64,000 bases of DNA from Somniosus microcephalus (GCA_052327205.1 CM126219.1:51398001-51462000); one strand, 5' to 3'. Shown: positions 1 through 64,000, counted from the first letter of the stretch. The notes: generated from the letters alone by a model not told the origin. A program made the numbers and translations.

Positions 1-397
1 CGATCGCAATCCCTGATAAGAGCCGCGGTGAAACGCGCGAGCGGGTAAGCCAGAGCCCGGGAGGGAGCGAGCAAGAGCCGCGCGAGCGGGTGAGCCAGAG
101 GCCGGGGGCCGCTTTCAAGTGTGAGGCGCAGCCGGGCCATCGATCGCATCCGCTGATAAGGCCCGCACTCGGCCTGAAAGTCAGCGTCGGGGAACGGGTG
201 ATAACCGCCATTGAAGTGGGCGGAGAGCGCCGAGAAGCGCGGGAAAACCGCCATCGAAGTGGGCGGGGAGAGCGAGAAGCGCGGGAAAGCCGCCATTTTT
301 CGCGGGGAAACCGCTGAAGAAGAAGGAAGAAGCGGGAAACCGCCATCTTGGAAATTATTAAGAATTTCAGGAAAGTAATAAGATTTTTCAAAAAGGC

Positions 398-670
398 TGG
401 TGTGTTCTCAAGAAGAGAGGGAAAATAAGTATAAGTACAGCAATACTTGTGGTGTTCTCAAGAAGAGAGAAGAAAATTAATTAGAATTTTCAGAAACAAG
501 AAATAAGTAAAGCAATACTTGTGGTGTTCTCAAGAAGAGAGAAGAAAATTAATTAGAATTTTCAGAAACAAGAAATAAGTAAAGCAATACTGGTGGTGTT
601 CTCAAGAAGAGAAGAAAATTAATAATAAGTAAAGAAATACTTGTGCTGTTCTCGGAAAGAGAAGAAGATG
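398..670 (+). repeat. 72-bp tandem repeat in the element leader (2 full copies plus 3 partial)
   Basis: CAATACTTGTGGTGTTCTCAAGAAGAGAGAAGAAAATTAATTAGAATTTTCAGAAACAAGAAATAAGTAAAG at 441 and 513; partial copies near 398, 585 and 635. Confidence 0.9.
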
Positions 671-3622
671 CCTAAGCGAGGAAATATTAATGATTTTAAT
701 GCTGAAATAGAAGACAGGGCCACGTATGGGGAACGCATAGGAATATATTGCGTAGCCATATACGCCAAGGCAATAACTTTGTTAAATTCGATGGGAGCAA
801 AAACATACGGGCTCTTGAAACATCTAATAGCACCAGTTAAACCAGTGGACCAGACCTTCGAAGAGAGCGTAGCAGTGCTGAAGGATCACTTGAACCCCAC
901 ACCGTTGATACTGGCTGAACGATTTAAATTTTACGCCAGAACCCAGAGGCAAGATGAAAGCAATGCGGAATACTTAGTCGAACTGCGTAAGCTAGCGAAA
1001 TACTGCCAGTTTGGAGGGAATTTGACAGAGGCGCTGCGGGACAAGTTCGTATGCGGCTTGGCCAAAGAAGGAACGCAGAAGCGACTTCTGGAAGAAAACG
1101 ACCTCACACTGGACAGGGCTGTCCTCATAGCTTCATCGCACGAAGCCGCAGCGAAAGGGGCGGCGGAAATGCAGCTAAAGGCGGCGGCACTCGGGGTGGA
1201 CCAAATGACTGCAAGCATTTCCAAATGCTACCGTTGTGGAAAGACAACGCACGACCAGAGTCAGTGCTGGTTTAAGAATCAAGAGTGCAGGAAATGTGGC
1301 AAACTGGGTCACATCGCGAAGGTATGCAGGTCCAGAAAGAAGACCAACAAACAAAGGAAGCCACCACCACAAGAAAAGTACAACAAGGTGCATCAGGTGG
1401 CTGAAAAGAGTTCAGACGAACAAAATTCAGACTCAGACCCAAACAGCCAGGAGTTGGATAGTCTGAGAATCCACAATGTGGGTAAAGTAACTGATCTACA
1501 GACGATCTGGGTCACACTAAAAATAGCTGGAGTCCAAGTACGAATGGAGCTGGACACGGGATCAGCTGTATCAGTCATCAACCAAAAGGACTACCACCGA
1601 CTATTCTCTCACATACCCTTAAGAAATACCAAGTTCGTATTACAGACATACACGGGGCATCGCGTATACCCCATGGGGAAGATAAGAGTCAAGGTGAGAG
1701 ATAGGGGTAAAGTACACCCAAGAATGAATTTGTACGTACTACCTGAGGGAGGACCACCACTTCTAGGACGGGAGTGGATCAAGAAAATAGACATGGAATG
1801 GCACTACCGACAAGCAATGACGAGTGAGGACTCGGTGCAGACAAGCAGCTCAGACTCTGAGCCGGAAGACGATAAGTCCAGCTTATGTATGAAAAACAAG
1901 GTTAACATTAACTCACGGACTAAGGTTGGAAAATCGATGGCGTGCATAAAGACAGAGAATTCTGAGTCTGTTCAAGCTACAGACATATGCATTACGGAGG
2001 AACACCGGGCTCGAACTCAACGCTATTTCAAAGTACAACAACAATTAGAACAATTAAGTTACCGCCTCGTACAAGAGATGAAAACAATGAAAAAGTTCTA
2101 TGACACCGAATGGGAGAGTCTGGAAAGACAACAGAACCTACTGGCTCAAGCAGAGAGCGACCATAGAGCCATCGTGACCAATTACCGATCACATCTCCCT
2201 GATGATGTTCAGGGGTTAGAATATTTGCATGATCTAGAGATACAGCAGAAGGGCAAATCACGCTGCACTGAGGATTTTGTTCTGCAATTAGAGACGGAGC
2301 TAGTGCAGGCAAAGTTAAGAGAAGTTGAATCACAGGGTGCTCTTAAGGAGATGCAGAAACAAATCTTGGACATGGAAAAGAGAAACGCTTCTTTACCTGA
2401 TGAGAATAATGTGGCCATGTTGCAAGAGGAGCTTATAGGGGCGAAACTGAAAGAAGCTAAGCAAAGGATGTTGGAACTTGAAACGCAGAACCAAATCAGC
2501 GGTAATCAGCTATGTCAAGCAGAGAAGGAGTGCAAGGGTCTACATGAGAAGGTGCAATATCTCTCAGCCCAAAATAAGGGACTACTCACTCAGTTAAATG
2601 AAAGTAAACGGGAAATGGCTGAGATGGACTGCAAGAATAAAGAAGAGTTGATGGCAGTGAGACTTCGAGAGGCAGATAGCATAGCAGCCTTGGCTGAACT
2701 CCAACAGGAAATTGCGAAAGAAACAAATGAAGAGGAATCTTCAGGAAGCCAGGATTTTATTCCAGTTCTTCTCTACGACTCCTTACAAGCAGAGTGCGAG
2801 AAGTTGAAAAAACAGTATGAACAGGCCCAGACTACAATTCTGGAGGGGGTTAACTCAGCAACCTCCGAAAAGCTAGTTTCGTTGGAAGTATATGAGCAAC
2901 TAAAGGTTGAACATGAGCAAGAAGTCCAAAGGCTGCAGGAAATTCTTGAGGAGCTCAGGGCCAAGACAGACTCATCGGTAGAAGTTCCATACATAGATGA
3001 GGATGTAGAGGTGAAAGACATGGCAGAACTCATAAAAATATGGAAGGAAGCCCAAGACAAATATGAGGCGGCAATTACCGAGGTTGACCGACTTGAAGAA
3101 CAGTTTCAACTGGGAATGGGCCCTGAACATGAGCTAGAGAGCATCGAGGCGCAACTTCTCCAAGCACTGGAAGCCAAAGTACAAGAGGAAGAGAAGATGA
3201 AAGCATTGGAGAAAATGATGGATGAAATGGAGGAGTACGCTGAATTACGTCCAGGGGAACAGGAGAATGGGGAAACAGCTACTTCAGTAGAAGGATTAAA
3301 TAGCCTGATAACGAAATCCCTGAAGGAAGGGAAAGGATTGAACGCACAAATGAGGCCAGGAGGGAAGGAAGGGCAGACATCCGAGGAAGAGCAGGATGAA
3401 TATGATTGCTTGAAGAAGGGTTTTGACCTGTTGAGTGACACCGAATGTTATGAGGATGTGGTCTGCCCAAATTGTGATGGGAACTCCCAAAGTGCTGAAA
3501 TCCTGAGGAAGCACTTAAGGTCTAAGGAACATAGAGAGTTGGTGGCGCTACAGATGGCAGCCGGGAAAAGAGCTCGGAGAGTTTCAAAAAGGCAGAAAAG
3601 AAAAAGAAGAAGCAGAAAATAA
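668..3622 (+). CDS. gag: Gag-protease fused in frame to ~600 aa of largely host-derived coiled-coil and zinc-finger sequence (984 aa from ATG 668)
   Basis: Uninterrupted ORF. Gag motif [11 protein letters not shown]...LRDKFVCGL, two CCHC knuckles ([28 protein letters not shown]) and protease ELDTGS...LLGREW. Homology to the 61769-62860 Gag-Pro ends at about 1804. Confidence 0.9.
   Translation: [984 protein letters not shown]
1997..2134 (+). other. STK10: Captured STK10(LOK)/SLK coiled-coil fragment
   Basis: [46 protein letters not shown] resembles recalled STK10 [46 protein letters not shown]. Confidence 0.7.
2135..2212 (+). other. Captured C-terminal fragment of an ANKRD24/RAI14/UACA-family protein
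   Basis: [19 protein letters not shown].DDVQ resembles the recalled family C-terminal motif (ANKRD24 ...[26 protein letters not shown]); short match. Confidence 0.5.
2270..2716 (+). other. EVI5: Captured EVI5/EVI5L C-terminal coiled-coil fragment with internal deletion
   Basis: [48 protein letters not shown] and [24 protein letters not shown] are near-verbatim recalled EVI5 motifs. Confidence 0.88.
2720..3115 (+). other. ANKRD24: Captured ANKRD24-like central coiled-coil fragment
   Basis: [25 protein letters not shown] resembles recalled ANKRD24 [44 protein letters not shown] resembles non-mammalian ANKRD24 as I recall it. End boundary approximate. Confidence 0.62.
3443..3619 (+). other. 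DNAJC21: Captured DNAJC21-like C2H2 (JAZ/U1-type) zinc finger and basic tail
   Basis: [34 protein letters not shown] resembles recalled [35 protein letters not shown]. The tail [11 protein letters not shown] resembles KLSKKQKKKKQ. Confidence 0.68.
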
Positions 3623-3890
3623 TAACTGTTTAAAATATTATTACTTCTACTACCTCAGTCCGAACACTACGAAAGGTGCTAAATTTGTAAAAAAAAATCC
3701 AGGGACATTATCAAGACAGCCAGTGGGTTGTATAAGTCCGCACTGCTGGTTCAACAGGACGAAAGTACAAGCTGTTAAAAAAAAAAAAAAAAAAAAGCTA
3801 TGGAGGATGCTGTCTGGAACGAATTAATACCAGAGACTGAATTTATGAACTGTTCCCACAGAGACTGAACCTGTAAACTGATTCCACTGA

Positions 3891-3995: not shown

Positions 3996-4056
3996 ATAAA
4001 GTTGAAGATTGTATGTTTAACGGGATTCTGTAAGTAATAAGCTAGGAAGGGAGGAG

Positions 4057-4309
4057 TGTTGTGTATGTAACCGTTTACCTTTAAGGGAACTATAGAATGT
4101 AACCGTTCGCCTTTAAGAGCACTACTTTAGGGTGGCACTATCTATTGGCTCATGTATACTGTAATACCGATAGTGACCACACCAGTATATAAGGGTTGTG
4201 ATACGTTAACTAGGGCAGAATCGCCCGAGCCGCTGAATAGTAAAGACGTGTTTTATTCTGTTAACAGTGGAGTCTGTGATTATTTATAATACAACCCACA
4301 GACTTAACA
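4057..4309 (+). repeat. 3' LTR of the chimeric Gypsy element
   Basis: Begins TGTT directly after the PPT and ends AACA. TATATAA box near 4186 and AGTAAA polyA-like signal. Core motif shared with the LTRs at 58715 and 63365. Confidence 0.85.
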
Positions 4310-41355: not shown

Positions 41356-41932
41356 AAGAGGGCCACCAGTCCTAGAATCATACTGCAGTAATGCAAGATA
41401 TAACCTAGAACGCCTATACATGCTTCAGGACAATGAGGTAGCTGAGAGACAAATCCAACAAGTAGGAAAACACTCATGGTGGTGGGAGACAGTATATAAT
41501 GCAGGCCAGCATCTGTGGTACCGCTTGTTATCTGAATCTTTAATTGTTGCTCAGATTGTGATACTGGGGGTTTTGCTCATTTTATAACACCTCTAAGCCA
41601 ATAGACTGAAATGAGAAGATAGACATGAAATGACAGCTTTATTAAGGGGATGATAATAGTGATGTATCAGAAGAAGTTCTTCTCCCTCAAGTTGGAGAGT
41701 GTTGAAATATGATGAAGTAACCATTTTTATAACATTGAAATATAATGAAATAACTATTTTAAATCACTGCTGGATGACCTCAGAGGGCCTTAACCTCGTC
41801 AACTGTTAGATAACCTTGTTACAAAAGCAAAATACTGCAGACGTGGGAAATCTAAAATAAAAAGAGAAAATGCTGGAAATACTCAGCAGGTGAGGCAGCA
41901 TCTGTGGAGAGAGAAACAGAGTTAACGTTTCA

Positions 41933-45519: not shown

Positions 45520-45729
45520 CTTCATCAGAACTGGAAAAAGTTAGCGCTGTAAGGGCAGGGAAAGGGGGGAGGGGAGGAAAGAACAAGAGGGAATTTCCAT
45601 GATAGTGTGGAAGGTAGGAGAGATTAAATGACAAAAAGTATGAATAAAAAAATTAAGTAAAAAAGCAGATTTTTCAAGAGAATCTGGGAACTGCTATTGT
45701 GTGATTGACTCCACACCCACCCTGTACAT

Positions 45730-46615
45730 TTTTTTATTCATTCCTGGGATGTGGGCGTCACTGGCCAGGCCAGCTTTTATTGCCCATCCCTAATTGGCCT
45801 TGAGAAGGTGGTGGTGAGCTGCCTTCTTGAACCGCTGCAGTCCTCGTGGTGAAGGTACTCCCCCAGTGCTGTTAGGGAGTTCTAGGATTTTGACCCAGTG
45901 ACGAATAAGGAACAGAGATATATTTCCAAGTCAGGATGGTGTGTAACTTGGAGGGGAACTTCGAGGCGGTGGTGTTCCCATGAGCCTGCTGCCCTTGTCC
46001 TTCTAGGTGGTAGAGGTTGTGGATTTGGGAGGTGCTGCTGAAGAAGCCTTGGCGAGTTGCTGCAGTGCATCTTGTAGATGGGACACATTGCAGCCACGGT
46101 GCGCCGGTGGTGGAGGGAGTGAATGTTTAAGGTGGTGGATGGGGTGCCAATCAAGCAGGCTGCTTTGTCCTGGATGGTGTTGAGCTCCTTGAATGTTGTT
46201 GCAGCTGCACTCATCCAGGCAAGTGGAGAGGATTCCATCACACTCCTTACTTGTGCCTTGTAGATGGTGGAAAGGCTTTGGAGTCAGGAGGTGAGACACT
46301 CGCCGCAGAATACCCAGCCTCTGACCTGCTCTGGTAGCCACATTATTTATGTGGGTGGCCCAGTTAAGTTTCTGGTCACTGGTGACCCCCAGGATGCTAA
46401 TTGTGGGGGATTCGATGATGGTAATGCCATTGAATGTCAAGGGACGGTGGTTAGACTCTCAGTTGTTGGAGATAGTCATTGCCTGGCACTTGTGTGACGC
46501 AAATGTTACCTGCCACTTATCAGCCCAAGCCTGAATGTCATCCAGGTCTTGCTGCATTCGGGCATGGACTGCTTAATTATCTGAAGAGTTGCGAATAGAA
46601 CTGAACACTGTGCAA
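45730..46615 (-). mobile_element. CR1/L2-group LINE 3' fragment (same family as 33508)
   Basis: ILGVT.DQKLNW..HI...RAGQRLGILRR; shared 3' end CCCATCCCTAATTG. Confidence 0.88.
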
Positions 46616-47172: not shown

Positions 47173-49454
47173 AACTAGTGGAGACCAATTGGTACTTGCC
47201 TGTGTTATCTCTGGTCAAGACCACCAGGCAGGTCTGGACGTGGCATTCTTTAAGAAAGGCTGTGAAAAGGAAACTACTATTATCACCTTGGATGGCAAAA
47301 CATTGGCAAAGTGGAGATTCTGTATGAGGATACGCTTAAGGAACAATGTGATGTAAGTACTTTCCATTTTTCTGCGCAGACATGAGGACATGATGCATGT
47401 TTCCCTGAATGCATGCCTGAGTGCAGACGGTGTGAGCTTGATCTAAAAATTGAAACCAGTGCAATTAATACTTTAAAATGGGAGGCGGCAGGTAAAGATG
47501 CAAACTGTGTTTATGAAGGACCTGTGAACGAACCCAGTGACACGAACACATGAAGCTTTGTCTAAAGAGTTTCATTTCATTTGTCATCTGAATTATGTAA
47601 TTGAAGATATGTACAGTTTTATCATACAATGCTTAGAGAAATTGTACACTTTTACTAAACACAGTTGTAGAAGATTTTTAGTTGAACTCACAATGAGGCA
47701 ATGGGAACATGATAAAACAATGCACAAGCAATTAGAGGGATTAATGAATAGGCAGACAGGGCATGTTATATCAAAACAAAGAGAGTTCCTGGTTTTAATA
47801 AAAGGAAAGGCAGAAAGATTAGGACAGGTTAGGGATAACAGCAATCATTCATAACAACTGATCTCAATGGTGATTATGTATGGAGGGTTTTTACTTAAAT
47901 CAGATTCAAAAAGAGGTTAAATGGTATTATAAACAATTAGATCTGAAATTTTATATTACATAAACAAATGAGAATTTTGAAATCAGAAGGGAATATGGTT
48001 TGATGTAAGGTGAAAAGATTTGGATTGGTGTGTTATGCCAGGAAGCCTTGCAAGCAGAGTGATGTTGTTTCACAACTGATCCCTGTGATCGTGGCAATAG
48101 TATTGCTACCTGCTGATGATAAACTGATGGAGTATTGAAAGTGGAATCAATATGCTTGTTTGAGGATGATATACACGAGGAATTTGCGAACTATCTGAAG
48201 ATATTAGTGAGAGAAAAAGAAGGGTTCTGGATTGCACCAGAAAAAGTGGTACCGGACCATGCAGCTGCGGTGTGCTGTGAAGCCCATCGTTAGCTAATGG
48301 TTTCACCCTGGATAAAGAATCCCTAGTTCTACTATTGAATTCGGAAAGGACGTTGTTTATTCGGAGAGAGGAATGTATTGCACTACAACAAATAAGAAAT
48401 ACTACCTACTATATGACCGGTTTGGTGGTTAACATTTCGCCTCACACCAACCAGAATGACTAAATTGGGGATAAGATATTGGTAGCTGTTAGGGCCCACA
48501 AGTAAGCATGACCCTCCAGACAGAAGCCTTATGGGTGGTTGTAAATTTTGGCCGCAAAAGAATTATGTGTACTTAAACATTTAAAGCAAGGGCTAATTGA
48601 TGATTATCATGATTTGATTGTACCGATTAGATGCAATTTTTGTTGAGCAGTATATGTGGGTCCTTGCACCCACTTCCACTGAAGGTGTGGAGTGCTCTGG
48701 CTGGCACACAGCGGCAGGTTTCAGGTTGGCTTAGGGACTGAAGGAGAGGGCGCTGTAGGATAGGGTGTATTTGTATGATTTAGTAAAACATTTTTGTATA
48801 ACTATAATATGTGAAATTGTATGTTAAAAGCATAAAAGCCTGTATAAAATGGCGAATGGCTGAGAGAAAAGCAGGATGGGAAATTATGCCAACCTGACTG
48901 AAACTCGCTCTGTTTTCAATTACTGAAGTAATAGAATGTAATGCTAAGTTTATGGAGACTATCAGGAACATGGTATTCAGTAATGTGATGGAAAAGAGAT
49001 AAGAGAAGAGAGAGAAATGGAAGGCACCCCTCAGTGATACTGTGGCAGAGCCACTGAGGGACTCTGAACAACTGTACATAATTCCCTTTAACGATGTGTT
49101 AGCTACAGACTAAATCTGTACCATTGTATATACTGTTTGCATGTAGTGCGCGGTCCCTTTAAGAGCGCAGGCAAACGCGATGACGTCATGCCGCTAATCA
49201 CCCAAATGCGGGAAAAACGTGATGACATCATGACGCTATCCACAGGACCACCCGGCAGTCCTTGTGGAGCCTCCGACCTGTTAAGACCTGTATTCATAGT
49301 TCTCTTGCATCAATCTGTTTAAACTCGTTAGTTTGACATTAAAAACCTTTTTGATTGATTGCCTGCATCGAACTTAATCTCTAGATAGGAATTTGACCAT
49401 TCCTACATTGGTGACCCCGACTTTTGTGAACGGATTTCGCAAAAGGAACACAGC

Positions 49455-50088
49455 ATGGAGGCAAATGCCATTTCGTTGAAGCTGCCGCAGTTCTGGGAGC
49501 AACAAGCGACCTCGTGGTTCATCCAAGTTGAAGCCCAGTTCGCCCTGAGAGGCATCGTTGAGGATCAGACCCGATACTTATATGTGGTCTCCGCACTCGA
49601 CGGCTCTACTACCTCGCGGATAGTCAGTCTTCTCGAGAACCCCCCAGCAGACCGCAAGTATGAAACCCTCAAGGCGCGGTTGCTACAGGTTTTCGGGCTC
49701 ACGAAATCAGAGCGCGCCCGGGATCGGGGACTCCAAACCTTCCGAGCTGATGAGCCAAATGCTCACACTCCTCGGCTCCGAACCGGAATGCTTTCTCTTC
49801 AGAGAGTTATTCCTCAGCAAATTACCAGAGCAAGTGCAAGCGGCCTTGGCGAGATCCGAGGTCGAAGACTGCGCAGGGCTCGCTGCCGAGGCAGACAAAA
49901 TATTCGCAGTTATGCAACAGTATTGCGCTGCCACGAGACGCCCATCCCCCACAGACGCCGCCCTAGCTCCTCAGCCCGCGGGGCTGTGCTTCTACCACGT
50001 GCGGTTTGGCGCGAAGGCGAGATTTTGCCGCCCTCCCTGCAGCTTCTCTCAAAAAAAAACAACTCCGTCCAATGAAGAACGGGTCTAA
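49455..50088 (+). pseudogene. gag: gag (frameshifted)
   Basis: LKLPQFW...WFIQVEAQF, GDSKPSELM and CFYHVRFGAKARFCRPPC motifs. Confidence 0.9.
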
Positions 50089-50089
50089 C

Positions 50090-53000
50090 GGGTGCCCCGT
50101 GGCCGCGATGGCAATCGGCAATGCAGGCAAGCTGCTCTTCATCACAGATACCCTCGCCGGCCATCGGTTCCTGTGCGATACCGGAGTGCAGTGCAGCATT
50201 CTACCTGCGTCAGCTCTTGATGTACAGGCTGGGAGGCATGGCCTCCCCCTTGAAGCGGCTAATGGCGGAGCTATTCGGACCTTCGGCAGACAGCGGGTCC
50301 AGGTGTGCTTCGGCGGCCAGCGGTTTTTCTGGGAATTCGTTACGGCCAAGGTTTCGCAAGCCATTCTCGGCGCAGATTTCCTGTGTGCCAACGGCCTCCT
50401 GGTCGATGTAAGGAACCGACGGCTGATCAGCGCGGCCACGTTTCACTCTATCGCTTGCCACCGTAGTAACACCATGTCACGCACCGTCTCCTGCACTTTC
50501 CCAACTCCGAATGAGTTCGCTCGCCTGCTAGGCGAATTTCCAGACCTGACCAGGCCCACATTCTCCTCCACGGCCATGAAGCATGGTGCACTACCGGCCC
50601 CCCGGTCCACGCGCGGGCCCGGTGCCTCGAACCTGGCAAGCTAGCGGTCGCGAAGGCGGAGTTCGCAACAATGGAACGCTTAGGGATTATTCGCAGGTCG
50701 AATAGTCCCTGGTCTTCACCTTTTCACATTGTACCGAAACCTGGCGGCGGATGGCGGCCCTGCGGCGATTATCGGCGCCTAAACGACGCCACCACTCCTG
50801 ATCGGTACCCGATCCCCCACATCCAGGCCATTTGGCAGGAAACACCGTTTTTTCCAAGGTTGACCTTGTCCGAGGCTACCACCAGGTCCCGGTACACCCG
50901 CAAGATGTCCAGAAGACCGCAGTCATCACCCCTTTCGGTCTCTTCGAATTTTTAAGGATGCCGTTTGGGTTGAAGAACGCCGCCCAGGCTTTCCAGCGCT
51001 TCATGGACTCCGTGCTGCGGGACCTCAAGTTCCTTTTCATCTACTTAGACGATATCCTCATTGCCAGTCCTAATAAGGAGGAACACATCTCTTACCTTCG
51101 CACCCTCTTTCGACGCCTCAGCCAACACGGCCTGATTATCAACCCAGCCAAGTGTCAGTTTGGTCTGCACCAAATTGATTTCCTGGGATATCGCATTACC
51201 TCAGAGGGAGCGGTTCCTTTGCAAGTGAAGGTAGAGGCGGTGACATCCTTTCCACGCCCGCAGAACATAAAGGCCCTGCAGGAGTTCCTCGGGATGGTAA
51301 AATTTTACCACCGTTTCGTGCCTAAGGCAGCACTGCTCATGCAGCCCCTGTACGAGGCCCTCAAGGGCAAGTCTGGCAAGGATCCAGTGGGCTGGATGGT
51401 TGACATGGACCGGGCATTCACCGACACCAAGAGCTCCTTAACCAACGCGGCCATGCTGGCGCACCCGCTACCAGGAGCCACCATCGCCCTCACCACCGAT
51501 GCGTCAGATTACGCAATCGGCGCCGTTCAGGAGCAGTGGGTGAACGGGACGTGGCAGCTGTTGGCATTCTTCAGCCGTCAACTGCGGCGTAACGAACGGG
51601 CGTACAGTACTTTCGACAGGGAGTTACTAGCCCTTTTTCTGGCCATCCGCCATTTCCGGTTCTTGTTGGAAGGACATCCTTTCACCGCTTTCGTCGACCA
51701 TAAGCCACTGACTTTTGCATTGGCCAAGACCACCGAACCGTGGTCATCTCGACAACAATGTCAGCTGACATACATCTCCGAATTTACCACAGATATTCAG
51801 CACGTGGCCGGTAAAGACAACCTGGTGGTAGATTGCCTCTCCCACGCGACCGTGCATGCGGTCCAGCTGGGCATCGACTACGCCCTCATGGCAGCAGACC
51901 AAGTCTCAGACCCAGAGGTGCAGGCTTACCGCACCAATGCCACTAGCCTCCAGTTGGCCGACGTCAGGTTCCATTCGGCTGGTACCACGTTGCTGTGTGA
52001 CGTCTCCGTTCGGAACCCTCGCCCTATTGTGCCGGTCGCTTGGCGCCGCAAGGTGTTTGACGCCATACATGGGTTGTCACACCCAGGAATGAAGGCTTCT
52101 CAGAAGCTAATATCATCTAAGTTCGTTTGGTGGGGCAGGCATAAAGATGTCCACGACTGGGCCAACACCTGCGTGGTCTGCCAAAAGGCCAAGGTACAGT
52201 GCCACATCAAGGCTCCATTGGCCACCTTTGCAGTTCCTGAGCGACGGTTTGACCACGTTAATGTGGACCTGGTAGGACCACTTCCACCTTCCCATGGTTT
52301 TACGCACATCCTGACCATAGTAGATCGCACCACCAGATGGCCGGAGGTGGTTCCCCTGTCATCTACTACTTTGGCGGATGTGGCCAGGGCATTCATCTCT
52401 TCATGGGTCGCCCGTTTTGGAGTGCCTGCTGACATCTCTTTGGACCAGGGACCGCAGTTTTCCTCCGAACTTTGGAATGCGGTGGCTCAACGACTCGGTG
52501 TCAAGTTACACCGCACCACAGCCTACCACCCACAAGCGAACTGTCTGTGCGAACGTTTTCACAGATCGCTTAAGGCCGCACTGAGGGCCAGCCTCCAAGA
52601 CGCTGGATGGGCATACAAGCTGCCGTGGGTCATGTTGGGCCTTCGCATGGCCCCCAAGGAAGATCTTCACTCTTCTGCGGCAGAGCTCGTTTATGGTCAG
52701 CCGCTGCGAGTGCCAGGGGATTTCCTGCCAACACCAACGGAGCCATGGTCCGCCTCACGCCAGCTTATCAGTCACCAGGAAGCAGCCAGATGTTTCGCAC
52801 CGGTTCCCACATTGCATCACAGGTTTCAGGGCTCTCATGTTCCAGCGGAGCTGAAACAAGCCGACTACGTGTTCATCCACCACGATGCTCACCGGGATCC
52901 ACTCAAGGCCCCATACACTGGTCCTTTCTGCGTGTTAGTGGCAGGAGACAAAACCTTCAAGGTGGATGTCGGTGGTAAACCGGACCACATTTCGGTCGAC

Positions 53001-53227
53001 CGTTTGAAGCCAGCACACCTGGACCTTGACCGTCCCGTCGAGACCGCACAGCCACCGAGACAGGGTCGGCCGCCCACCGTCGTCACGCCAGAACAAGTGC
53101 AACCACCCGCCAGACCGCCCGCCGTCCAACAGCTTCCGCTTCGGGAATACAGGAGTCGTTCTGACAGGCTTGTCAGACCCCCTCACCGTTTGACTTTTTC
53201 TGTTAAAGACAATTCTGGGGGGGTGCA
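50090..53227 (+). pseudogene. pol: pol (PR-RT-RNaseH-IN) with frameshifts
   Basis: [29 protein letters not shown] zinc motif, DLVGP...DQG...ERFH and PYTGPF. Confidence 0.93.
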
Positions 53228-54054
53228 TGTGGCAGAGCCACTGAGGGACTCTGAACAACTGTATATAATTCCCTTTAATTATGTGTTAGCTACAGACTAA
53301 ATCTGTACCATTGTATATACTGTTTGCATGTACAGTGTGCGGTCCCTTTAAGAGCGCGGGCAAACGCGATGACGTCATGCCGCTAATCACGTGATCACCC
53401 AAACGCGGGAAAAACGTGATGACGTCATGACGCCATCCACGGGACCGCCCGGCAGTCCTCGTGCAGCCTCCGACCTGTTAAGACCTGTATTCATAGTTCT
53501 CTTGCATCAATCTGTTTAAACTCGTTAGTTTGACATTAAAAACCTTTTTGATTGATTGTCTGCGTCGAACTTAATCTCTAGATAGGAATTTGACCATTCC
53601 TACAATATCACTATAAAATGGACAGATTGTTTAGACAACATCTTGGGAAATGGTCTTTGGAAAGAGAACACCTAAAGATAAAAGGCACTTTGATATGCAC
53701 AAAGCGAGTGGGATCAACAAGGTCATAAAACATGTACTAGGTATCAGATAGCTGGTTGCAGTCACGTAGGCAAAAGAAAGGAAAGTGTATAAAGATACAG
53801 ATATTGAACACTGAAGGCAGCGTGAACCAAGTAATCAGAGTTGAAGGAGCTTCAGTCGACAGAACACAGCAAGAAACCAGAGAAGCGAGCTTCAGTTAAG
53901 AGAAAACAGCAAGAAAATAAAGAGACCACGCCACAGTCGCTCGGAAGGAATGCTGAGGCTCAAATGAACAAGACTGTGACTATCTCCTTGTTAAGTATTA
54001 CTTCTTTGTACTGGATATTTAATGCTTAATAAACCTGTTTTACTGATACACAAT

Positions 54055-54822
54055 GGCCCAGAAATTCGGGTCGGGGGCTTCCCGCGGGTGCAAGCCCCCA
54101 ATCTGCACTTACCTAGCGCGCTGGCCGTTGAGCTGTGGGCCCCATGGAATTCCAATCCGGGGCCTGGTCCAGCTGCCGGCGCGCAGTGCTTGCGTATCCC
54201 AGGGGCGCAGTTAGTTTGATGCATCCCCTGGGATCACGTGGGCCACGGGGAGCCAATCGGAGCAGGGAATGCTCCATTCATAAGTCTGACAGGAAGTGCT
54301 GTCAAGACTTAGAAATACTACGGCCCCAAAACAGCACTAAATCTTCAAATAATTTTTTTTTTTAAATCACATTTTTTAAATAAACTATAAATTACACGAA
54401 ATAACTATTTTAAACAATAATTTAAATTTTTGAAAATAATAAATTTATTTTCTAACGGGGCTAAAAATAAACTTACCTTGCTTCAAAATATTAAAAAATA
54501 ATAAACCTGTGGAAAAAATGTTTTAATTTTAATTAATTCACCACTTACCTTGTAAAAAGCAGGCCTTACGCCTGCTTTTTACATTTCTAACTTCTGCAGG
54601 CTTACCCTCCCGGGAAAACCTGTAAAAAAAAAAAACTGAAGTTCGACGCGCACGCACAGCCTCTCCTGCGCACGCGTTCGACCTCTGAACCACTTCGTTC
54701 AGTGGAACGGAAGTGCCGGTTTCCCACGCATGCGCAGTGTATGCAGGAAACCGGCACTTCCATTGGGCCTACGGGTGAGTACCCCGTGCGTACTCACCCG
54801 TGGAGATCCGAATTTCTGGGCC
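54055..54822 (-). mobile_element. MITE family A copy, inverted
   Basis: Reverse complement of 14164-14934 with high identity; TIR GGCCCAGAAATTCGG. Confidence 0.9.
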
Positions 54823-55055
54823 ATTATACCTGTACCTGTTGCGTTTGCAAAGATAATCCAGAGACCGTAAGCAGAGTTCAGTTCATGTTGCTTCTTTAAT
54901 GGCTCCCACACACACACACTTCCAGGCAAAAGCAATCGAATACCTATACACAATACAATGATAACAGCACTATCAAACTCCATGTGCTCAGGCCAAGGCA
55001 ATCAAGTACCTAGCACCAATGTCAGACATAACATTTCCTCCCCCCTCACAGGATT

Positions 55056-58000
55056 TCAAACATGAAATGTAGTGACAAAGTCCTGTAGGTGGCCATGGCG
55101 AGAACGTGTACGAACAGGCCGAGGTGTGGACTGGTGAAGTGCAGGCCGAAGTGGGGACTGCTGAGGAGCAGGCTGAGGCACAACATCTGTTTGGGGGTTG
55201 GCTGGCTGAGTCACATGTGCATCCCGCCACTCTGGGGGTAAAGCTTGGGGGTTAGGTTCGTATAATCCCGCATCAGGGGGTGCTGGCACCTTCCGAAGGC
55301 AGCTGGCATGCCACCGAGAGCCGTCAGTGAGGCAGAAAGTGGCTGGTCCAAGTTGGTGGCTGATTTGGAGAGGGGAGGACCAGGATGATGCCATCTTATT
55401 GTTGCGGTGAGGCCTGCGGACTCTGACCCAATTGGAGACTGAGATGTTGGGCGCCTTGGCCCTCTTCGACTGGTCGAAGCGGAGTTTCATCTTCTCCTGC
55501 TGTCTAGCAACTGTGGCTTGAGCCGGTGGAGCAGGGCTCTGAGCTAGCGAGGGGCGGAGCCTGCCAAGGGGCAGCATGAGCTCACGGCCTAGCATGAGGG
55601 ATGCGGATGAGACCCCTGTAGTGGAATGCTGGGAGGCTCTGGAATGCAGCAGTGTGTGGAGGAGGGCCTTGTCAAATGCACACCCCTGGGATAGGTGTGC
55701 TCTGAGGCCATTTTTCAGTGTCTGGTTAAAACGCTCCACCCCCCCATTTGATTCGGGGTGGTAGTACGCTGTGCGAATGTGACGGATGCCCTTGCTCTCA
55801 AGGTAAGAGGAGAGTTCCGAAGAGACCATTTGGGGGCCATTGTCTGTGGTGATGGCCTTTGGATACCCCCAGCGGGAGAAGAGGGACTCAAGGATATCAA
55901 TGATGACCCGAGAGGTGACGGAGCCCACGGCAGTGACCTCTGGCCATTTTGAGTGCAGGTCATAGGTCACCACTAGGAACCGTTGATGGTGAGGGACACC
56001 ATGGATCTCCCCGCAGACGTCCAGCTGCAGGTGCTCCCAGGGCTGAGAGGGCCAGGCAAGGGGTTGCAGGGGTGGGGGAGCCAGTCTTGCCACTTACAAG
56101 GCAGGCTGCACAGTCCTTGACCAGGGCCTCGATTTCCCTGTCGATACCCGGCCACCACACTAGGTCTCGGCATCATTGTTTGAGCTTCACTATGCCCAAG
56201 TGGCCCTCATGCGCCATGGATAAAACACGCGCACGAAGGGCACTTGGGACCACAGTGCAGAGCCCACGTGCAACACAGGAGTCATTCCAGCAGGAGAGCT
56301 CCTCTTTAACTCTGGAGTAGGCAGACAGTTCCTCAGGCACCTTGCGAGGCCAGCCATCTCTGATGATGGTGCACAGCTGGGAGAGGGCCGGATCCTGTTC
56401 AGAGGCTTCTTTGAGCTCCTGGAGAGAGACTGTGGTTTGGAGAGGCGTGTGCAGCATCTGGACGATATCCTGTTCCACATGTTCAGACCCGACGAGTGGG
56501 GCTGGGGCAGAGACAGTGCGGGAGAGCAGATCTGCAACAACATTGTCACGTCCTGGTGTGAACTGGAGACTGAAATTGTATTGGCGGAGGTGGTCAGACC
56601 AGCGGTGTAGACGCAGTGGTCTGTGGCCCGTGCCGGATGTCGACAGCAGGGCAGTGAGAGCCTGGTGATCGGTTCGCAGGGTGAAGGCATGGCCATACGT
56701 GTACAGGTGCCACCGCTCACATGCCCAGACGCACGCCAGCGCCTCACGCTCGCCTACTGAGTACTTCTGTTCGGTGGGGCTAAGGGCTCGTGAGGCAAAG
56801 GCGATTGGTTTCTCCACTCCATTCTGTATCTGCGATAACACCACCCCCACAGCTGCAGCGGACGCGTCGCAGGTGACGAGGGTGGGGCTGGCGACGTCAA
56901 AGTGAGTCAACACTGGAGGCGACGTGAGCTGCGATTTGAGGAGGCGAACAGCTTCTGTACAGGCTTGTGACCACACCCAGGGCTCATCCTTTTGCAGGAG
57001 CTGGCGCAGTGGAGCTGTGGTGGCTGAGTACTGGGGCAAAAACTTCAGGTAGTACCCAGTCATGCAAAGGAAGGAGGCAACCTGTGCTGCAGAGCTGGGT
57101 TCTGGGATGCTGTGAATGGCATCCACGTTTGACTGGAGTGGGGATATACCGTCAGCCGACAACCGAAACCACACATATTCGATCTCTGAAACAGCAAAGA
57201 CACACTTTTCACCATTCAGTGTGAGCTTGTGTTTTGCTAGAGCTGTGAAAACTCTGTGAAGGCATTCGTCATGAGTGGAGGTCGAGGGCCCATGCACGAC
57301 GATGTCATCCAGGTAGATGGCCACCCCAGGAATGCCCGCGAGCACAGAGGACATCACCTTTTGGAAGCAGCTGGGTGCAGAGCTAAGTCCAAGTGGCATC
57401 CTGGTGTACCGAAAGACGCCAGCATGTGTCACAAAAGCAGTGAGTTCCCTGCTGCTGGGGTGGAGGGGAACCTGTAGATAGCCCTGTCGAAGGTCCAGTT
57501 TTGAGAACAGGATGGAACCATAGAACTGCGCTGTGAATTCCTCTGACGTGGGCAGTGGATACTTGTCAGGGATTACGGCCTTATTCACTGCTCGAAGATC
57601 GACACAGACGCGTAGACCACCTGACTTTTTTGTTGCGACCACCAAGTTGGAGACCCATGGGGAGGCATCAACTTGTTTGATGATGCCGGCTTCCAGTAGC
57701 TGCTTTAGTTCAGCTGTGACCCCGTCACGGAGAGCAAGCGGGATGCGGCGCAGTGGCTGAATGACAGGGGTAATGGTGGAGTCAACCATGGGCTGGTGGG
57801 TGAAGGCAGTCAGGCAGCCCAGACCCTCGAAGAGTGCTGGCCATGTTTGGCGCCACGGTGAGGCGATGTGCAGAATCGCAGACCCGCCGGTGTCCAAGAG
57901 AGAAAAACCCAGGTCAGTGAAAAGATCCAGTCCCATCAGGTTAGCTCCTTGGCGTGCCACATGAAAACAAAAATCTGGCAAAACTTTTGTTCCATAGCGT

Positions 58001-58714
58001 ACAGTGAGGTTGACTGAGCCCACTAGTCCAATTTTCAAATTACCATACCCGCAAAGGGTAGTGGAGGGCGCAGAGAGTGGCAGGGAGCTGAAAAAGCGTT
58101 TGAATGTGTCCACATTCAGCAGTGAGACGCTGACACCGGTATCCAACAACAGCGGGATGCATACATCATTCAGGTTAATTGTGCATGACTTGAAAGCCAC
58201 TACTGGCCCAGAGCTCACGTTGTGAATTATAGTGCTTGAGGACTGAGAGTGTTCATTTGTAGCAACCGGGGCAGAGCGGCAGACATTGGCAAAGTGATTT
58301 TGTTTTCCACAATTGCGACAGGCTTGGCCGCGCGCGGGGCAATTCTGCGCTCTGGTAGCATGTGAACGAGATCTGCAGTTTCCACACTGTTGCCGCGGTA
58401 GCGCGCGTTGCTACCGTCGCGCGAGCATTACCGTGTCAGAGCTGTCGGGCCAAGGGTGCTGTCACTGGGTGTGTGTGCTAGTTTTGCTGCACATTCGGCT
58501 GCAGACTCCAATTGAAAGGCAATGTTGACTGCCTGTGACAACGGCAGATCGTCGGACTCGAGTAATAGTCTTTCAGGCACTCTCAAATTGTTTGTGTCCT
58601 CTATTAGTTGATCACGCACCATCTTATCTTGTAGTGCACCGAACTTGCATGAGCTAGCTAACCCCCTCAAATTAGCCACGTGTTGATGCACCGACTCGCC
58701 GAGGAGTTGGTGAC
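55056..58714 (-). pseudogene. pol: gag(3' part)-pol of the outer element (gag 5' part at 63557-63865)
   Basis: LLDTG, RVCVDLR, YLDD, CDAS, HEGHLG, TDNG...VERFN; RRFIFRQRH|QLLGESV rejoins across the insertion. Confidence 0.93.
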
Positions 58715-61700
58715 TGTTATGCCCGTGTATAATCAGACACAGACTGCGGAGAACGGTACAAACAGTGTTTACTCAACGTGGCTCAAACTGCAACTGATCT
58801 GTACAGATTACTACTCAACGTTATATACAGGTGTGGTCACTGCCGGTACTACAGTATACATGAGCTGTAAAAATTAGTTACCCCCCTTAAAGGTACATAC
58901 ATTACAATTCCTCCCCTTTTAGATTAACAGTACCATAACACTCATTTAACAATTAAATATCAAACTAATTACAATTAACACTTTTAACATGCAACATTAG
59001 CTGAAAATAGTCTATTTATAAATTCAGTCTTTGGGGAGGCTTCCTGATCCTTTCTGGATAGCGCCTTTCCCGAGTGTCTTGCTCTTGGTGCGGAGGCGAT
59101 TCTGGCCCCCTGTCGTCGGTTGGTTCATCAGCTTCCGATGCTACTGTTTCTGGGGTAGATGCTACCTGTACGTCGAGTTCATCACCAGGTACGTATGGGC
59201 AAGGCATGGGGTTGACTTGTTCCTGTGACTCTAGGATCTGGTCAGCATGGCGTCTCACGATGCTCTCCCCAACGTCCACTGTGTACATTAGTGGGCCCTG
59301 CCGTGTGCATATCGTTCCTGGCTGCCATTTTTCTGTTCGGTAGTTGCGGGCCAAGACTGGTTGCCCTACATTGAAGCTCCTTGTTGGCTTCTCATGGATG
59401 TGCTGGAATTGCTTACTCTCAACATCTCTTCGTACGTTTGATCTGAGCAAATCCAGGCGAGATCTTAACCTTCGGTTAAAGAACATCATGGCTGGGGCCT
59501 GGTTGGTGACTGCATGTGTCGCATTCCGGTAGGCGAACAGGAAATTGTCCACCTTGTGCTGCAGCGGAATGTTGTCATTGTACATAGCCTTTATTGCCTT
59601 CTTAAAGGTTTGTACGAACCTCTCAGCCAATCCATTTGTGGCTGGATGATACGGGGCGGATGTGTAATGCCTTACCCCATTCTTTTTCAAGAACCTCCAG
59701 AACTCTTCGGACACGAACTGTGGTCCGTTGTCGGAGCAAATCTGTTCTGGCAAGCCATTCCTGGCAAAAATGGCCCGTAGGACTGCAATAGTTTTCTCCG
59801 TGGTGGTGGAGGACATTTTGATGACCTCAGGCCATTTCGAGTGCGCATCCACGGCTATTAAAAACATTGAGTCCATGAATGGACCAGCAAAATCAATATG
59901 CACCCGTTGCCATGGAGATGAGGGCTACTCCCATGGGTGTAGAGGGGCCTGTGGTGGTGCATTTTGGACTTTCTGGCATCCTGAGCAGCTCTTGGTCAGG
60001 TTCTCGATTTGTTTACCGATTCCCGGCCACCACACATAAGCCCTGGCTAGGCTTTTCATTTTTACCCCTCCCAGATGACCCTCATGAAGCTCATTGAGCA
60101 TTCTATCCCTTAACTTGGGTCGAATTACCACGCGGGATCCACACATCAAGGTCCCCCAGCACACTGACAGCTGTTCTCTCCTTGTCGAGAATGCTTGCAA
60201 CAGTGAGTCGCCATGTGCTGGCCATCCCTTCACCTTCAAATCATATACCCGAGACAGTGTCGGGTCATTTTGGGTTTCCTTTTCAATACAAGCGTTAGTT
60301 ACCGGTCGGTTTTCAACTATAGTCGAATGGAATATTTCGACAGGATCCACTGCTGCTGCTTCCTCCACAGTAGGCAGTGGCAGGCGTGATAGCCCATCAG
60401 CATTTCCATGCTGTTTCGTGCCCTTATATTCAATCTCATAGCGGTGCGCCCCTAGAAGAAGTGACCATCTTTGTAGTCGTTGCGCAGTCATCACCGGAAC
60501 GCCCTTCTTCGGATTAAAAATGGAGACAAGAGGCTGGTGATCAGTCAGCAAGGTGAATTTCTGCCCGTGCAGATAGTGATTGAAGTTTTTCACTCCCCAC
60601 ACTAGGCTGAGGGCCTCCCTGTCAATCTGGGCGTAGTTACACTCGGCTGAGGTTAGTGATCATGACGCAAAGGCTATTGGCCTCCCTGAGCCGTCTGAGA
60701 ATTTGTGCGACAGCACCGCTCCAATGCCGTAGGGTGACGCATCACATGCCAACCGAATTGGTAATGCCGGGTTGTAATGGGCCAATACCTCTTTCGATGT
60801 GATTAGTGTTTTGCTCTTCTGGAAAGCTCGTCTACATTCATCACTCCACTTCCATGGCACCCCAGTTTGCAGTAGGGTGTTCAGTGGGTGTCGTATTGTA
60901 GACAAATTTGGCAAGAACTTATGGTAGTAGTTTACCAGCCCGAGGAACGACCTCAGTTGTGACACATTTTCCGGTGCTGGAGCCTTGACTACTGCTTCAA
61001 TCTTCTCTGGGACTTATGTAACCCCTCTTTATCGATAACGTGGCCACAATACGAGATCTGTTTTCTAAAAAGCTCGCATTTGGGGCGGTTAGCTCGGAGC
61101 CCATATTCCTGCAATCTAGTGAGCCCCTGCTCCAGGTTGGCAAGGTGATCACTGTCATTTTCGCCCATGACCAGGATATCGTCCAAATAACACTGGGTCC
61201 CTGGGATCCCTTGCAGGACTTGTTCCATTGCCCTCTGCCAAATAGCCGGAGCTGATGCTACCCCGAATACCAGCCGGTTGTATTGGTAGAGACCTTTATG
61301 GGTGTTGATTGTGAGGTATTTTTTTGATGCTTCTTCTACCTCCATTTGCAGATACGCCTGGGCCAGATCAATCTTAGTGAAGCGTTCCCCTCCAGATAGC
61401 GAGGCGAAAATATCTTCAATCCGCGGAAGTAGATATTGTACGGTGTGAAGGACCGGGTTCACTGTTACCTTAAAGTCCCCACAGATGCGAACCTTCCTTG
61501 GTTCCCCAGGCGCGTTGCTCAATGACTTTTTCTTCACAGGGATGATGGGTGTAGCCCACTCGCTCCAGTCTACCTTGGACAGTACACCTGAACGTTCCAG
61601 ACTCTCCAGCTCTGCTTTGACGGCTGGGCGGATCGCATAAGGTACCGGTCTGGCCTTAAAAAATTTTGGACTTGTGTTTTCTTCAATTTTAATCGTCGCT

Positions 61701-63556
61701 GTCATGCCTTTTAGTGTTCCGAGTCCTTGCTGGAACACTTCTTTCGCGTCAGTTAGGATCTTTGACAGTCACCCAGGTGTGACGTTGTCATCCTTTTTGT
61801 CAGCCACAGTCAGTGCCTGTATGGAATGCCAATCCAGTTGTATTTTCCGGATCCATTCACGTCCCAGTAATGGTGGTCCTCCATCTTGCAATACATACAG
61901 GTCTAGTTTTGGTGTTTCCTTACCGTTATATATAACGGTCACCCTTATTTTTCCTTTGGGGTAGACTTTTTGCCCCGTGTACGTCTTCAAAATAATTTTT
62001 GTGTCTCTCAAGGGTATGTGTGAGAATAGCCGCTCGTAGTCCCATCGGTTTATGACTCTTAGGGCTGATCCTGTGTCCAATTCCATCTTTACCTGGACTC
62101 CTGCTATCTTGAGAGTGACCCAAATGGTTCGATGATCCTCTGTTGTGATCACATTATGTAGTTTCAGACAACTCAGTTCCCTGCTTTCGGAGTCGTTATC
62201 ACTCTTTTGTTCGTCTGAACTATTCTCCGTTATCTTATGCACCTTCTTGTACTTTCCTTTGGTCGGTTTGTTATTGCTAGTTTTCTTTCCCGACCTGCAG
62301 ACTCGTGCTATGTGTCCTACTTTTCCACACTGTCTGCACACTTTGTCTTTGAACCAGCAATCATTCTGGTCGTGTGTTGTTCTGCCGCAGCGATAGCACT
62401 TCTCTGTTCCATATGACATTTCAGATAAAAGCCGTTTCTGGGTTCCTTCACTTTGAAGCCCACACACAAACTTGTCCCTTAAGGTATCTGCCAGGCCCGC
62501 TCCAAACTGGCAGTGTTTCGATAGTTTGCGCAGTTCTGTTAAATAATCAGCATTGCTTTCATCCTTATGCTGGTTCCGTTTGTGAAACTTGAATCTTTCT
62601 GCTATCAGCAGCGGTGTGGGGTTTAAATGTTCCTTTAGTATCGTTACTATGTCTTCAAAACTCTTTTCCATTGGCTTCGTTGTGGTTACTAGACTTCGCA
62701 ATAACCCATACGTCTTTGCACCCATTAAATTCAACAATACCGACGCTTTCTTGTCATCTGACACCTCATTTGCCTTGCAGTACACCTCTATTCGTTCGAC
62801 ATATATTTTCCAATCTTCGACTTCATTGTCAAATGCGGTGATACTGCCACTCTTCGGCATTTTGGGTGTGGTTTAAAATGGCGTCTCCCAATGGCTTAAA
62901 ATGGTGTCTCCCGCGCTTTCCTTCCTCCCCCGCTGCTGCCGGTTCTCGTGGCAATGGCGGCACCTCGCGGGTTTCTGCGCGTCTCTCTCTCCCTCTCTCC
63001 GACGCTGCTCGGCCCCTGAACACCGGCTGCGCCCTGTGCGCTCTGCCCTCTCGCTCTCTCCCCCGTCGACGCTGCTCGGCCCTTTGCTGTGCCGCTCGGT
63101 CGGGCTCTAACCCGCCACTGTCCGGGAAGGGTCTGCGCACTACCTGTTGCCAGCCCGTTTCGCTGGACCACCTCGACTGGAAAGCCAAGCCTAGCGCTCA
63201 ACAGCCTCCCCCGCAATTCTCGAGTCTCTGCTGGATGACTGGGCGGTTGCCCGTGGTCGACGCCCGAGTCTCTGGCCTTGACCTCCAATCCACTGATCTT
63301 CAGGAACGAATCCCCGGGAGGTGATGCAGAGTCGCAGGTAGGTTCGAACCTGCCTCGCCGCCAATGTTCCGTCCATGTATAATCAGACACAGACTGCAGA
63401 GAACGGTACAAACGGTGTTTACTCAACGTGGCTCAGACTGCAACTGATCTGTACAGATTACTACTCAACTTTATATACAGGTGTGGTCACTGCCGGTACA
63501 ACAGTATACATGAGCTGTAAAAAGTAGTTCCCCCCCTTAAAGGTACATACATTACA
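58715..63556 (-). mobile_element. Nested full-length Ty3/Gypsy provirus (LTRs 58715-58906, 63365-63556)
   Basis: 5-bp TSD GTGAC on both sides, TG...CA LTRs, PBS TGGCGGCGAGG, PPT AAAAGGGGAGGAA. Confidence 0.97.
59016..62860 (-). pseudogene. pol: gag-pol of the nested element, with several stops and a frameshift
   Basis: Gag with two CCHC knuckles, ELDTGS, RICGDFK, YLDD, CDAS, HIDFAGP...SDNG...AERFV. Confidence 0.95.
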
Positions 63557-64000
63557 GTGACGCTGTCTAAAAATGAATCGCCGCAGGAGGGCACATTGTG
63601 GGGCAGAGAAGTGTGTGCTTAACAGAGCCACAGCCTGATCATATGTTTGAATTGAGTCTGCTGTGCATAATGTCCCAAGAACACGCTGGCCCTCTGCTCC
63701 CAAGCAATTGGATAACAGTGCCTTTTTCCAAGCCGTACTCACAGTTTCTAGTCCAAGAGCAATGAGGTAGGTTTCAAAGGACTGTAACCAGCGAACCCAT
63801 GGGATCGGGGGCTCACCTGGTAGTGCAAGGAAGGGAGGAGGTGGTGGAAGAGAGATTTCAGCCATCCTTGTCGCCAAATGTTGCGTTTGCAAAGATAATC
63901 CAGAGACCGTAAGCAGAGTTCAGTTCATGTTGCTTCTTTAATGGCTCCCACACACACACACACACTTCCAGGCAAAAGCAATCGAATACCTATACACAAT

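What the first reader, a model, noticed from the sequence alone, without database searches (positions are those of the whole stretch)
58715..63556. Probable helper lineage of the chimeric element present in the same window
Gag-Pro aligns along its length (MPKRGNI/MPKSGSI; HLNPTPL..AERFKF; TIWVTLKIAGVQV.MELDTGSA; GGPPLLGREWI.KI...WH). The LTRs share GCTCATGTATACTGT..TACCG..AGTGACCACACC.GTATATAA (about 4148-4192 vs. the minus strand of both nested LTRs). This element has RT/RH/IN exactly where the chimera has host sequence, which defines the replacement breakpoint and suggests an autonomous/parasite pair.
Basis: partly seen in the sequence, partly recalled or inferred. Interest (0 to 1): 0.7.

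Follow-up and report, generated by a model that had tools for sequence, protein, structure and literature searches.

The report
Shark retrotransposon and its gene-carrying offshoot
This broken but complete jumping gene in a shark- or ray-like fish is the closest known relative, and a plausible but unproven enzyme supplier, of a neighbouring element that swapped its own copying enzymes for fused pieces of several host genes.

Summary
Observation confirmed; the helper reading is only partly supported. Element A (58715-63556, minus) is an ordinary full-length Ty3/gypsy LTR retrotransposon nested in another gypsy. This copy is dead (three stops, a frameshift, a gag deletion), so only its family could help. 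Chimera C (<1-4309, plus) shares descent with A: Gag-protease 62% identical and sister to A (100/100), with homologous leader and LTR. Between about 1830 and 3800, pol is replaced by an open, in-frame mosaic of elasmobranch EVI5, ankycorbin/ANKRD24, a PKK (SLK/STK10-type) piece and a zinc finger. The split is old: synonymous sites are near saturation, and C's Gag branch is about 6 times longer than A's. Of the published helper criteria, the shared promoter region is met, identical LTR ends are not (unrelated element B matches C nearly as well), and PBS, ages and exclusivity cannot be tested. Precedents: wheat Cereba/Quinta and maize Bs1.

The parts
63365..63556 (-). Element A 5' LTR (192 bp)
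63347..63364 (-). Element A primer-binding site, beginning TGGCGGCGAGG one base after the LTR; same general type as element B's TGGCGACAAGG. tRNA-Ser assignment is recalled, not tested
62861..63346 (-). Element A leader, homologous to C's leader
   Evidence: score 110.5 against best unrelated window 68.5 among 474 windows; 0 of 500 shuffles reach it
61772..62860 (-). Element A Gag (two CCHC knuckles) and aspartic protease; in-frame gap of about 36-41 codons near 62395-62420; followed by a stop at 61769-61771
60992..61768 (-). Element A reverse transcriptase (YLDD); frame break near 60995-61007
   Evidence: Pfam RVT_1 E 1.8e-25
59016..61013 (-). Element A RNase H and integrase (HHCC, core), with stops at 60660-60662 and 59925-59927; ends PQRLNL-stop
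58907..58920 (-). Element A polypurine tract
58715..58906 (-). Element A 3' LTR (192 bp)
58710..58714 (+). Target-site duplication GTGAC (partner at 63557-63561), inside gag of element B
1..667 (+). Chimera C leader (5' LTR and PBS lie off-window)
668..1831 (+). Chimera C Gag-protease: two CCHC knuckles and DTG active site intact; a 4-codon gap near residue 29
2036..2140 (+). PKK-domain fragment (SLK/STK10-type kinase coiled coil); score at the Pfam cut-off, gene identity not confirmed
   Evidence: PF12474 E 1.2e-5, 25.8 bits against cut-off 25
2135..2215 (+). Fragment of the ankycorbin/ANKRD24-like C-terminus
   Evidence: matches 14 of 15 fetched ankycorbins, pairwise E 1e-10 to 5e-6
2264..2716 (+). 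EVI5 coiled coil with a 64-residue internal deletion between similar repeats; 81-86% identical to 16 elasmobranch EVI5 proteins
2720..3232 (+). Ankycorbin/ANKRD24-like coiled coil with several in-frame gaps; 60-75% identical to 12 elasmobranch proteins
   Evidence: E 9e-46
3440..3622 (+). C2H2-type zinc finger and basic tail ending the ORF; source gene unassigned
   Evidence: PF12756 E 2.5e-4, below cut-off; atlas hits 0.82 or lower
3777..3796 (+). A20 tract just before the return to element sequence
3805..3876 (+). Duplicated, non-coding relic of the integrase C-terminus (QRLNL-stop at 3834 and PQRLNL-stop at 3862); marks the 3' breakpoint
4044..4056 (+). Chimera C polypurine tract
4057..4309 (+). 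Chimera C 3' LTR (253 bp), with the TATA-containing box 4148-4192 shared with A
54837..64000 (-). Element B, the unrelated gypsy that A is nested in (3' LTR 54837-55033; 5' LTR from about 63880, running off-window); used as control

Best explanation
C is a non-autonomous offshoot of the lineage to which A belongs. An A-like element copied host mRNAs in its particle by repeated template switching and lost RT, RNase H and almost all of integrase, between the protease-RT linker (about 1830) and the last ~16 integrase codons (about 3800). It kept leader, Gag, protease, PPT and LTRs. It has since replicated long enough for synonymous sites to approach saturation, with its fused reading frame kept open by selection, so RT and integrase must come in trans. 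The most likely supplier is an intact member of A's lineage (A's family or a near sister), co-expressed through the shared promoter box and co-packaged by compatible Gag; C may contribute Gag and protease in return. Shown: homology, sister position, both breakpoints, host origin of the EVI5 and ankycorbin pieces, open frame, dead state of this A copy. Inferred: template switching, that C is multi-copy, selection, and who helps. Split odds: common descent about 0.95; dependence on a helper about 0.85; A's own family about 0.45.
For: C+A sister group 100/100 in a careful 16-row tree and SH-aLRT 100 in a quick 47-row tree. Best database Gag-PR is 48% identical to C or 47%, against 56% (62-63% without gaps) for A. 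Leader and LTR are homologous. RL[ND]L-stop occurs 3 times in all six frames of the window: twice in C's 3' region and once at A's integrase end; 0 of 67 full-length relatives end in PQRLNL, though 11 of 67 end in RL[ND]L. Pairwise dN 0.27 against dS about 1.7. Neutral drift to the 15% protein divergence seen in the EVI5 piece left the tail stop-free in 0 of 400 simulations. B's Gag-PR is far weaker (28-40%) and D gives no hit. Deep Gag divergence is also reported for the Cereba/Quinta pair (PMC11302176).
Against: LTR ends are not identical: 10 and 9 of the 12 terminal bases match A, but 9 and 8 match unrelated B. The LTRs are only about 76% identical over 187 aligned bases. C's branch is 0.65 against A's 0.10 (relative-rate p<0.02 with 7 of 7 outgroups), which leaves room for a closer autonomous family on C's branch. 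A is 59-61% identical to its four best database relatives, hardly less than to C. Shark elements are scarce in the databases (one named cartilaginous-fish hit among 120 listed), so finding nothing closer is weak evidence. No second copy of C was seen: its tail matched 0 of 267 fetched gypsy proteins.
Confidence: 0.55

Rival explanations
1. A is a cousin only. The true helper is an unseen autonomous family that shares C's long Gag branch and LTR ends.
For: dS near saturation, with 39 of 81 fourfold sites identical; asymmetric branches; non-identical LTR ends; one window cannot show a genome's families.
Against: No closer protein in two database searches. Fast Gag evolution in the dependent partner is reported for Quinta (PMC11302176), so the long branch does not require a closer autonomous family.
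Confidence: 0.28
2. C is a single-locus product (a one-off retrocopy or a domesticated gene) that needed a helper only once.
For: Only one copy is seen; open frame and low dN/dS also fit a host gene; no relatives of the fusion.
Against: Sharp LTR ends and PPT are kept despite near-saturated divergence from A; C abuts a degraded LINE (repeat match at 4697-5987 to an RT-bearing repeat); at least three donors imply several rounds of replication (inference).
Confidence: 0.1
3. C is mobilised promiscuously by any co-expressed gypsy with the same primer type, such as B's family.
For: B's PBS type, PPT and terminal bases resemble A's and C's.
Against: B's Gag-PR is only 28-40% identical to C's; B's LTR aligns poorly to C's (score 22.5 against 97).
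Confidence: 0.07

Closest known systems
RLG_Cereba / RLG_Quinta in wheat (PMC11302176; passages and section 5 read)
   Same: Autonomous gypsy plus a derivative that keeps Gag and an extra domain but lacks RT and integrase; Gag strongly diverged; LTR promoter region conserved.
   Different: There PBS and LTR termini are identical and thousands of copies were compared. Here the termini differ, the PBS is unseen, C keeps protease, and the extra region is a traceable host-gene mosaic in a vertebrate.
Maize Bs1 (as summarised in PMC13317346 and PMC5131818; passages read; original papers not read)
   Same: LTR element holding pieces of three host genes joined into a chimeric reading frame.
   Different: Plant element with enzyme-gene fragments; C holds coiled-coil and zinc-finger pieces fused in frame behind Gag-protease, with a candidate parent lineage beside it.
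LTR-mediated retrocopies in animals (Tan et al. 2016, PMC5131818; passages read)
   Same: Internal ORFs replaced by mRNA sequence, including multi-gene cases and zebrafish examples.
   Different: Those are young retrocopies; C's pieces are 15-25% diverged from their closest shark matches yet still in one open frame. Junction microsimilarity could not be tested without host DNA.
Barley Sabrina/WHAM with BAGY2 (PMC5738225; passages read) and mouse MaLR/MERVL, ETn/MusD (passage in PMC5131818)
   Same: Gag-keeping or non-coding elements assigned to an autonomous partner on limited LTR and PBS similarity.
   Different: No multi-gene host mosaic described in the passages read.
Defective transducing retroviruses with gag-host fusions (recalled, from no call)
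   Same: Host coding pieces replace pol, are fused to gag and depend on a helper.
   Different: C is an env-less Ty3/gypsy element; nothing here suggests infectivity or transforming activity.
Aquatic-animal K02A2.6-like gypsy polyproteins, e.g. P0127 (Poecilia mexicana)
   Same: Single Gag-Pol frame, 57-68% identical to A along its length.
   Different: Intact and autonomous; outside the C+A clade.

Membership tests
Ty3/gypsy LTR retrotransposon (element A) | Paired TG...CA LTRs with target-site duplication, PBS and PPT | tested here: met
Ty3/gypsy LTR retrotransposon (element A) | Domain order PR-RT-RH-IN, no env | tested here: met
   only 109 nt between integrase stop and LTR; Ty3 and a caulimovirus-type polyprotein are the best PDB RT matches
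Autonomous element (this copy of A) | Uninterrupted Gag-Pol | tested here: not met
   three stops, one frameshift, one gag deletion
Mag lineage of gypsy | RT tree placement with named Mag, SURL or Jule references | not tested
   No named reference sequences were at hand. Two CCHC knuckles, a single ORF and short LTRs fit by recall only; PMC6238403 passages name the lineage but give no sequence criteria.
Autonomous/non-autonomous pair (criteria in PMC11302176) | Dependent partner lacks RT and integrase but keeps cis elements | tested here: met
   5' LTR and PBS unseen
Autonomous/non-autonomous pair (criteria in PMC11302176) | Identical PBS | not testable with these tools
   C's PBS lies before position 1
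Autonomous/non-autonomous pair (criteria in PMC11302176) | Identical LTR termini | tested here: not met
   10 of 12 and 9 of 12 with A; 9 and 8 with unrelated B; single decayed copies compared
Autonomous/non-autonomous pair (criteria in PMC11302176) | Conserved LTR promoter/terminator region | tested here: met
   41 of 45 around the TATA-like box and a shared AGTAAA; about 76% overall; function untested
Autonomous/non-autonomous pair (criteria in PMC11302176) | Only family in the genome with these shared features; overlapping ages; co-expression | not testable with these tools
   No eukaryotic genome collection available. True within the window; A's LTR age is unreliable.
LTR-mediated gene capture (Bs1 / Tan et al. 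type; element C) | Internal ORF replaced by intron-free host coding sequence, element sequence on both sides | tested here: met
   absence of introns inferred from continuous protein alignment
LTR-mediated gene capture (Bs1 / Tan et al. type; element C) | Microsimilarity at the switch points | not testable with these tools
   Host mRNAs not available; the EVI5 deletion lies between similar peptide repeats

The most novel reading that the evidence does not exclude
C is a long-lived, still-mobile vertebrate gypsy family in partnership with the A lineage. It supplies Gag and protease and, in the slot where pol used to be, a selected ~600-residue protein stitched from at least three host genes (EVI5, ankycorbin/ANKRD24, a PKK kinase coil, a zinc finger with a basic tail). 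Its own protease would release this protein, which could act on the host cell, for example as a coiled-coil decoy or as a particle-trafficking or nuclear-targeting factor for both partners.
Probability: 0.22. Interest if true: 0.82.

Novelty: new variant of a known kind. Interest (0 to 1): 0.5.

Why it matters
Element A alone is ordinary. Its value is as a reference that fixes both ends of the pol replacement in C and shows how old and lopsided the split is. Gag-keeping dependent gypsy families with a named partner, and multi-gene capture into one reading frame, are documented mainly in plants. A vertebrate case whose stolen mosaic stays in frame through long replication would be a direct example of exon shuffling under selection on a transposon, and it can be tested from one genome assembly and RNA-seq. 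Four literature searches listed no paper on it by title or abstract start. That library holds open-licence papers only, and Repbase and Dfam could not be checked.

Tried and rejected
Dating A by LTR divergence (K2P 0.060): rejected as an age, because the older host B has 0 substitutions in 117 bases (Fisher p 0.008). LTR termini and PPT as evidence for pairing: rejected, because B matches about as well. Deep Gag divergence as a refutation of helping: rejected on the Quinta precedent. The A20 tract as a captured mRNA tail: possible, but I saw no AATAAA in the 40 nt before it (read). Dating the capture from host-gene trees: EVI5 groups with elasmobranchs (99/97) but neither tree resolves an order, and no chimaera sequence was included. 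PDB search of the tail: 0 hits. Two atlas searches: all scores 0.82 or lower, uninformative. An ankyrin-repeat origin for residues 413-442 (10 of 29 identical): too weak to claim. The careful 47-row tree did not finish, so I built a 16-row careful tree with 14 relatives picked by hand from the 45. No tRNA genes lie in the window, so the primer tRNA is untested. The host species of the unnamed database relatives is unknown. No structure or complex prediction was run, as no binding claim is made. No supplementary files were read; Tan et al.'s Supplemental Table 8 (fish cases) may bear on novelty.

Full report
Setting. The window is repeat-rich vertebrate DNA holding LINE remnants, a DDE transposase and four gypsy-type LTR elements. 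I call them C (the chimera, from before position 1 to 4309, plus), D (49041-53604, plus), B (54837 to beyond 64000, minus) and A (58715-63556, minus; the finding). The host-gene pieces in C match sharks and rays best, so the host is probably an elasmobranch (inference).

Element A. It has two 192-bp LTRs that differ at 11 sites, a GTGAC target-site duplication, a PBS and a PPT, and it interrupts the gag of B. Pfam finds a zinc knuckle, protease, RT, RNase H and both integrase domains in gypsy order. It is 57-68% identical along its length to an intact Poecilia polyprotein. This copy is dead: stops at 61769-61771, 60660-60662 and 59925-59927, a frame break near 61000, and an in-frame gap of about 36-41 codons before the first knuckle that C and all five relatives shown fill. 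'Helper' can therefore apply only to its family.

Gag-protease of C and A align at 221 of 392 columns, E 3e-159. The LTR box matches at 41 and 40 of 45 bases, and the LTRs align over most of their length, far above shuffles and above every other part of the window. The leaders are also homologous: score 110.5, while the best unrelated tile among 474 scores 68.5. C has no RT, RNase H or integrase-core similarity.

A second breakpoint, not in the finding. After C's stop codon and an A20 tract (3777-3796), C reads QRLNL-stop at 3834 and PQRLNL-stop at 3862. A's integrase ends PPQRLNL-stop. These three are the only RL[ND]L-stop strings in the six frames of the window. None of 67 full-length database relatives ends in PQRLNL, although 11 end in RL[ND]L. 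At the DNA level the match is modest (2 and 4 of 500 shuffles reach it), but position and peptide agree. So pol was replaced between about 1830 and about 3800, with element sequence on both sides. This is the pattern described for template-switch capture (PMC5131818, passages).

What replaced pol. One frame of 984 codons runs from Gag to 3622. It holds a PKK-domain piece (E 1.2e-5, at the cut-off), a piece of the ankycorbin/ANKRD24 C-terminus, EVI5 coiled coil with a 64-residue deletion (81-86% identical to 16 elasmobranch proteins), an ankycorbin middle coil (E 9e-46; 60-75% to 12 elasmobranch proteins), and an unassigned C2H2 finger with a basic tail. A DNAJC21 resemblance of the finger is recalled only. 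Host EVI5 proteins are 89-93% identical to the Heptranchias one over the same columns, so C's piece has diverged on its own (branch 0.18). In simulation, neutral drift of that size left the 590-codon tail stop-free in 0 of 400 runs, and all junctions and gaps keep the frame. I infer selection on the fused frame, which could act on the protein or merely on translation.

How close are A and C? They are sisters with full support among the sequences I could fetch: 100/100 in a careful 16-row tree and 100 in a quick 47-row tree built from the 45 best of 267 fetched proteins. No database Gag-protease exceeds 48% identity to C (130 hits, 120 listed; best 150 of 20517 listed). But the split is deep and uneven: pS 0.67, dS about 1.7, dN 0.27; branch lengths 0.65 for C and 0.10 for A; relative-rate tests significant with 7 of 7 outgroups. 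A is about as similar to its best database relatives (59-61%) as to C (62-63%). Only one named cartilaginous-fish element appears among the 120 hits listed, so the absence of a closer relative is weak evidence.

Helper criteria. PMC11302176 (section 5) lists identical PBS, identical LTR termini, a conserved promoter/terminator region and exclusivity. PBS: not testable, C's is off-window. Termini: not met strictly; C matches A at 10 and 9 of 12 terminal bases, and unrelated B at 9 and 8. Promoter region: met in sequence. Exclusivity: true in the window, unknown in the genome. Age: A's LTR divergence (0.060) conflicts with nesting, since B, which must be older, shows 0 substitutions in 117 bases, so no age comparison stands. 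C's open frame would rarely survive 3% neutral decay (1% of 300 runs), which fits a younger insertion or continued selection. The same paper reports that Quinta's Gag has barely any DNA homology to its helper's, so deep Gag divergence does not refute the pairing.

Mechanism. Most likely an A-like ancestor captured host mRNAs in successive template switches, lost pol, and persisted as a Gag-protease-supplying dependent family copied by RT and integrase from the A lineage (0.55; 0.45 for A's own family). Rivals: an unseen closer helper (0.28), a single-locus or domesticated C (0.10), promiscuous help from B-like families (0.07).

Verdict. A is an ordinary gypsy copy. The pair works like Cereba/Quinta and C is built like Bs1, but membership as a proven helper pair is not established: one defining feature failed and others could not be tested. 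I rate it a new variant of a known kind, interest 0.5, most of it carried by the chimera. Searches listed no description of it (listings only); repeat databases and the closed contig collections were not checked.

Noticed in passing
window 54838-54954 and 63880-64000 against 58715-58906 and 63365-63556: The host element B has 0 of 117 LTR substitutions while the nested, younger A has 11 of 192, four of them within the last 11 bases. Mixed templates at insertion, gene conversion in B, or chance (p 0.008).
   Followed up: partly
window 49041-53604: Element D: a third gypsy (367 and 377 bp LTRs, K2P 0.04, PBS of another type, 832-codon pol stretch), unrelated to C by tblastn.
   Followed up: partly
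window 291, 341 and 62875: CGCCATNTT motifs (YY1-like by recall) sit just upstream of gag in both C and A; 3 of the 6 window occurrences are in these two leaders. Possible shared cis signal.
   Followed up: partly
window 3831-4005: C's 3' region has grown by tandem repeats: a 28-bp unit (2.2 copies, holding the integrase relic) and a 41-bp unit (3.1 copies). Its leader (about 352-669) and LTR U3 also hold duplications.
   Followed up: partly
window 29272-30252: DDE_Tnp_4 (Harbinger-type by recall) transposase ORF of 326 codons, within repeats at 27855-27895/29167-29207 and 28094-28168/29203-29277.
   Followed up: no
window 42025-45652 and 37212-39400: LINE copies with RT; the first has an upstream GDSL-esterase ORF (CR1/L2-type by recall).
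   Followed up: no
window 14160-14935, 20139-20910, 20929-21675 and 54052-54826: Four copies of a ~780-bp dispersed repeat (69-92% alike), in both orientations.
   Followed up: no
window 21978-23088: A 357-bp inverted repeat at 96.6% identity (21978-22333 and 22732-23088), whose spacer is repeated at 24798-25199.
   Followed up: no
window 40895-41383: Tandem array with a period of about 56 bp, open in several frames.
   Followed up: no
window 33508-34223 and 45730-46439: A ~710-bp direct repeat at 88% identity, next to the LINE ORF1.
   Followed up: no
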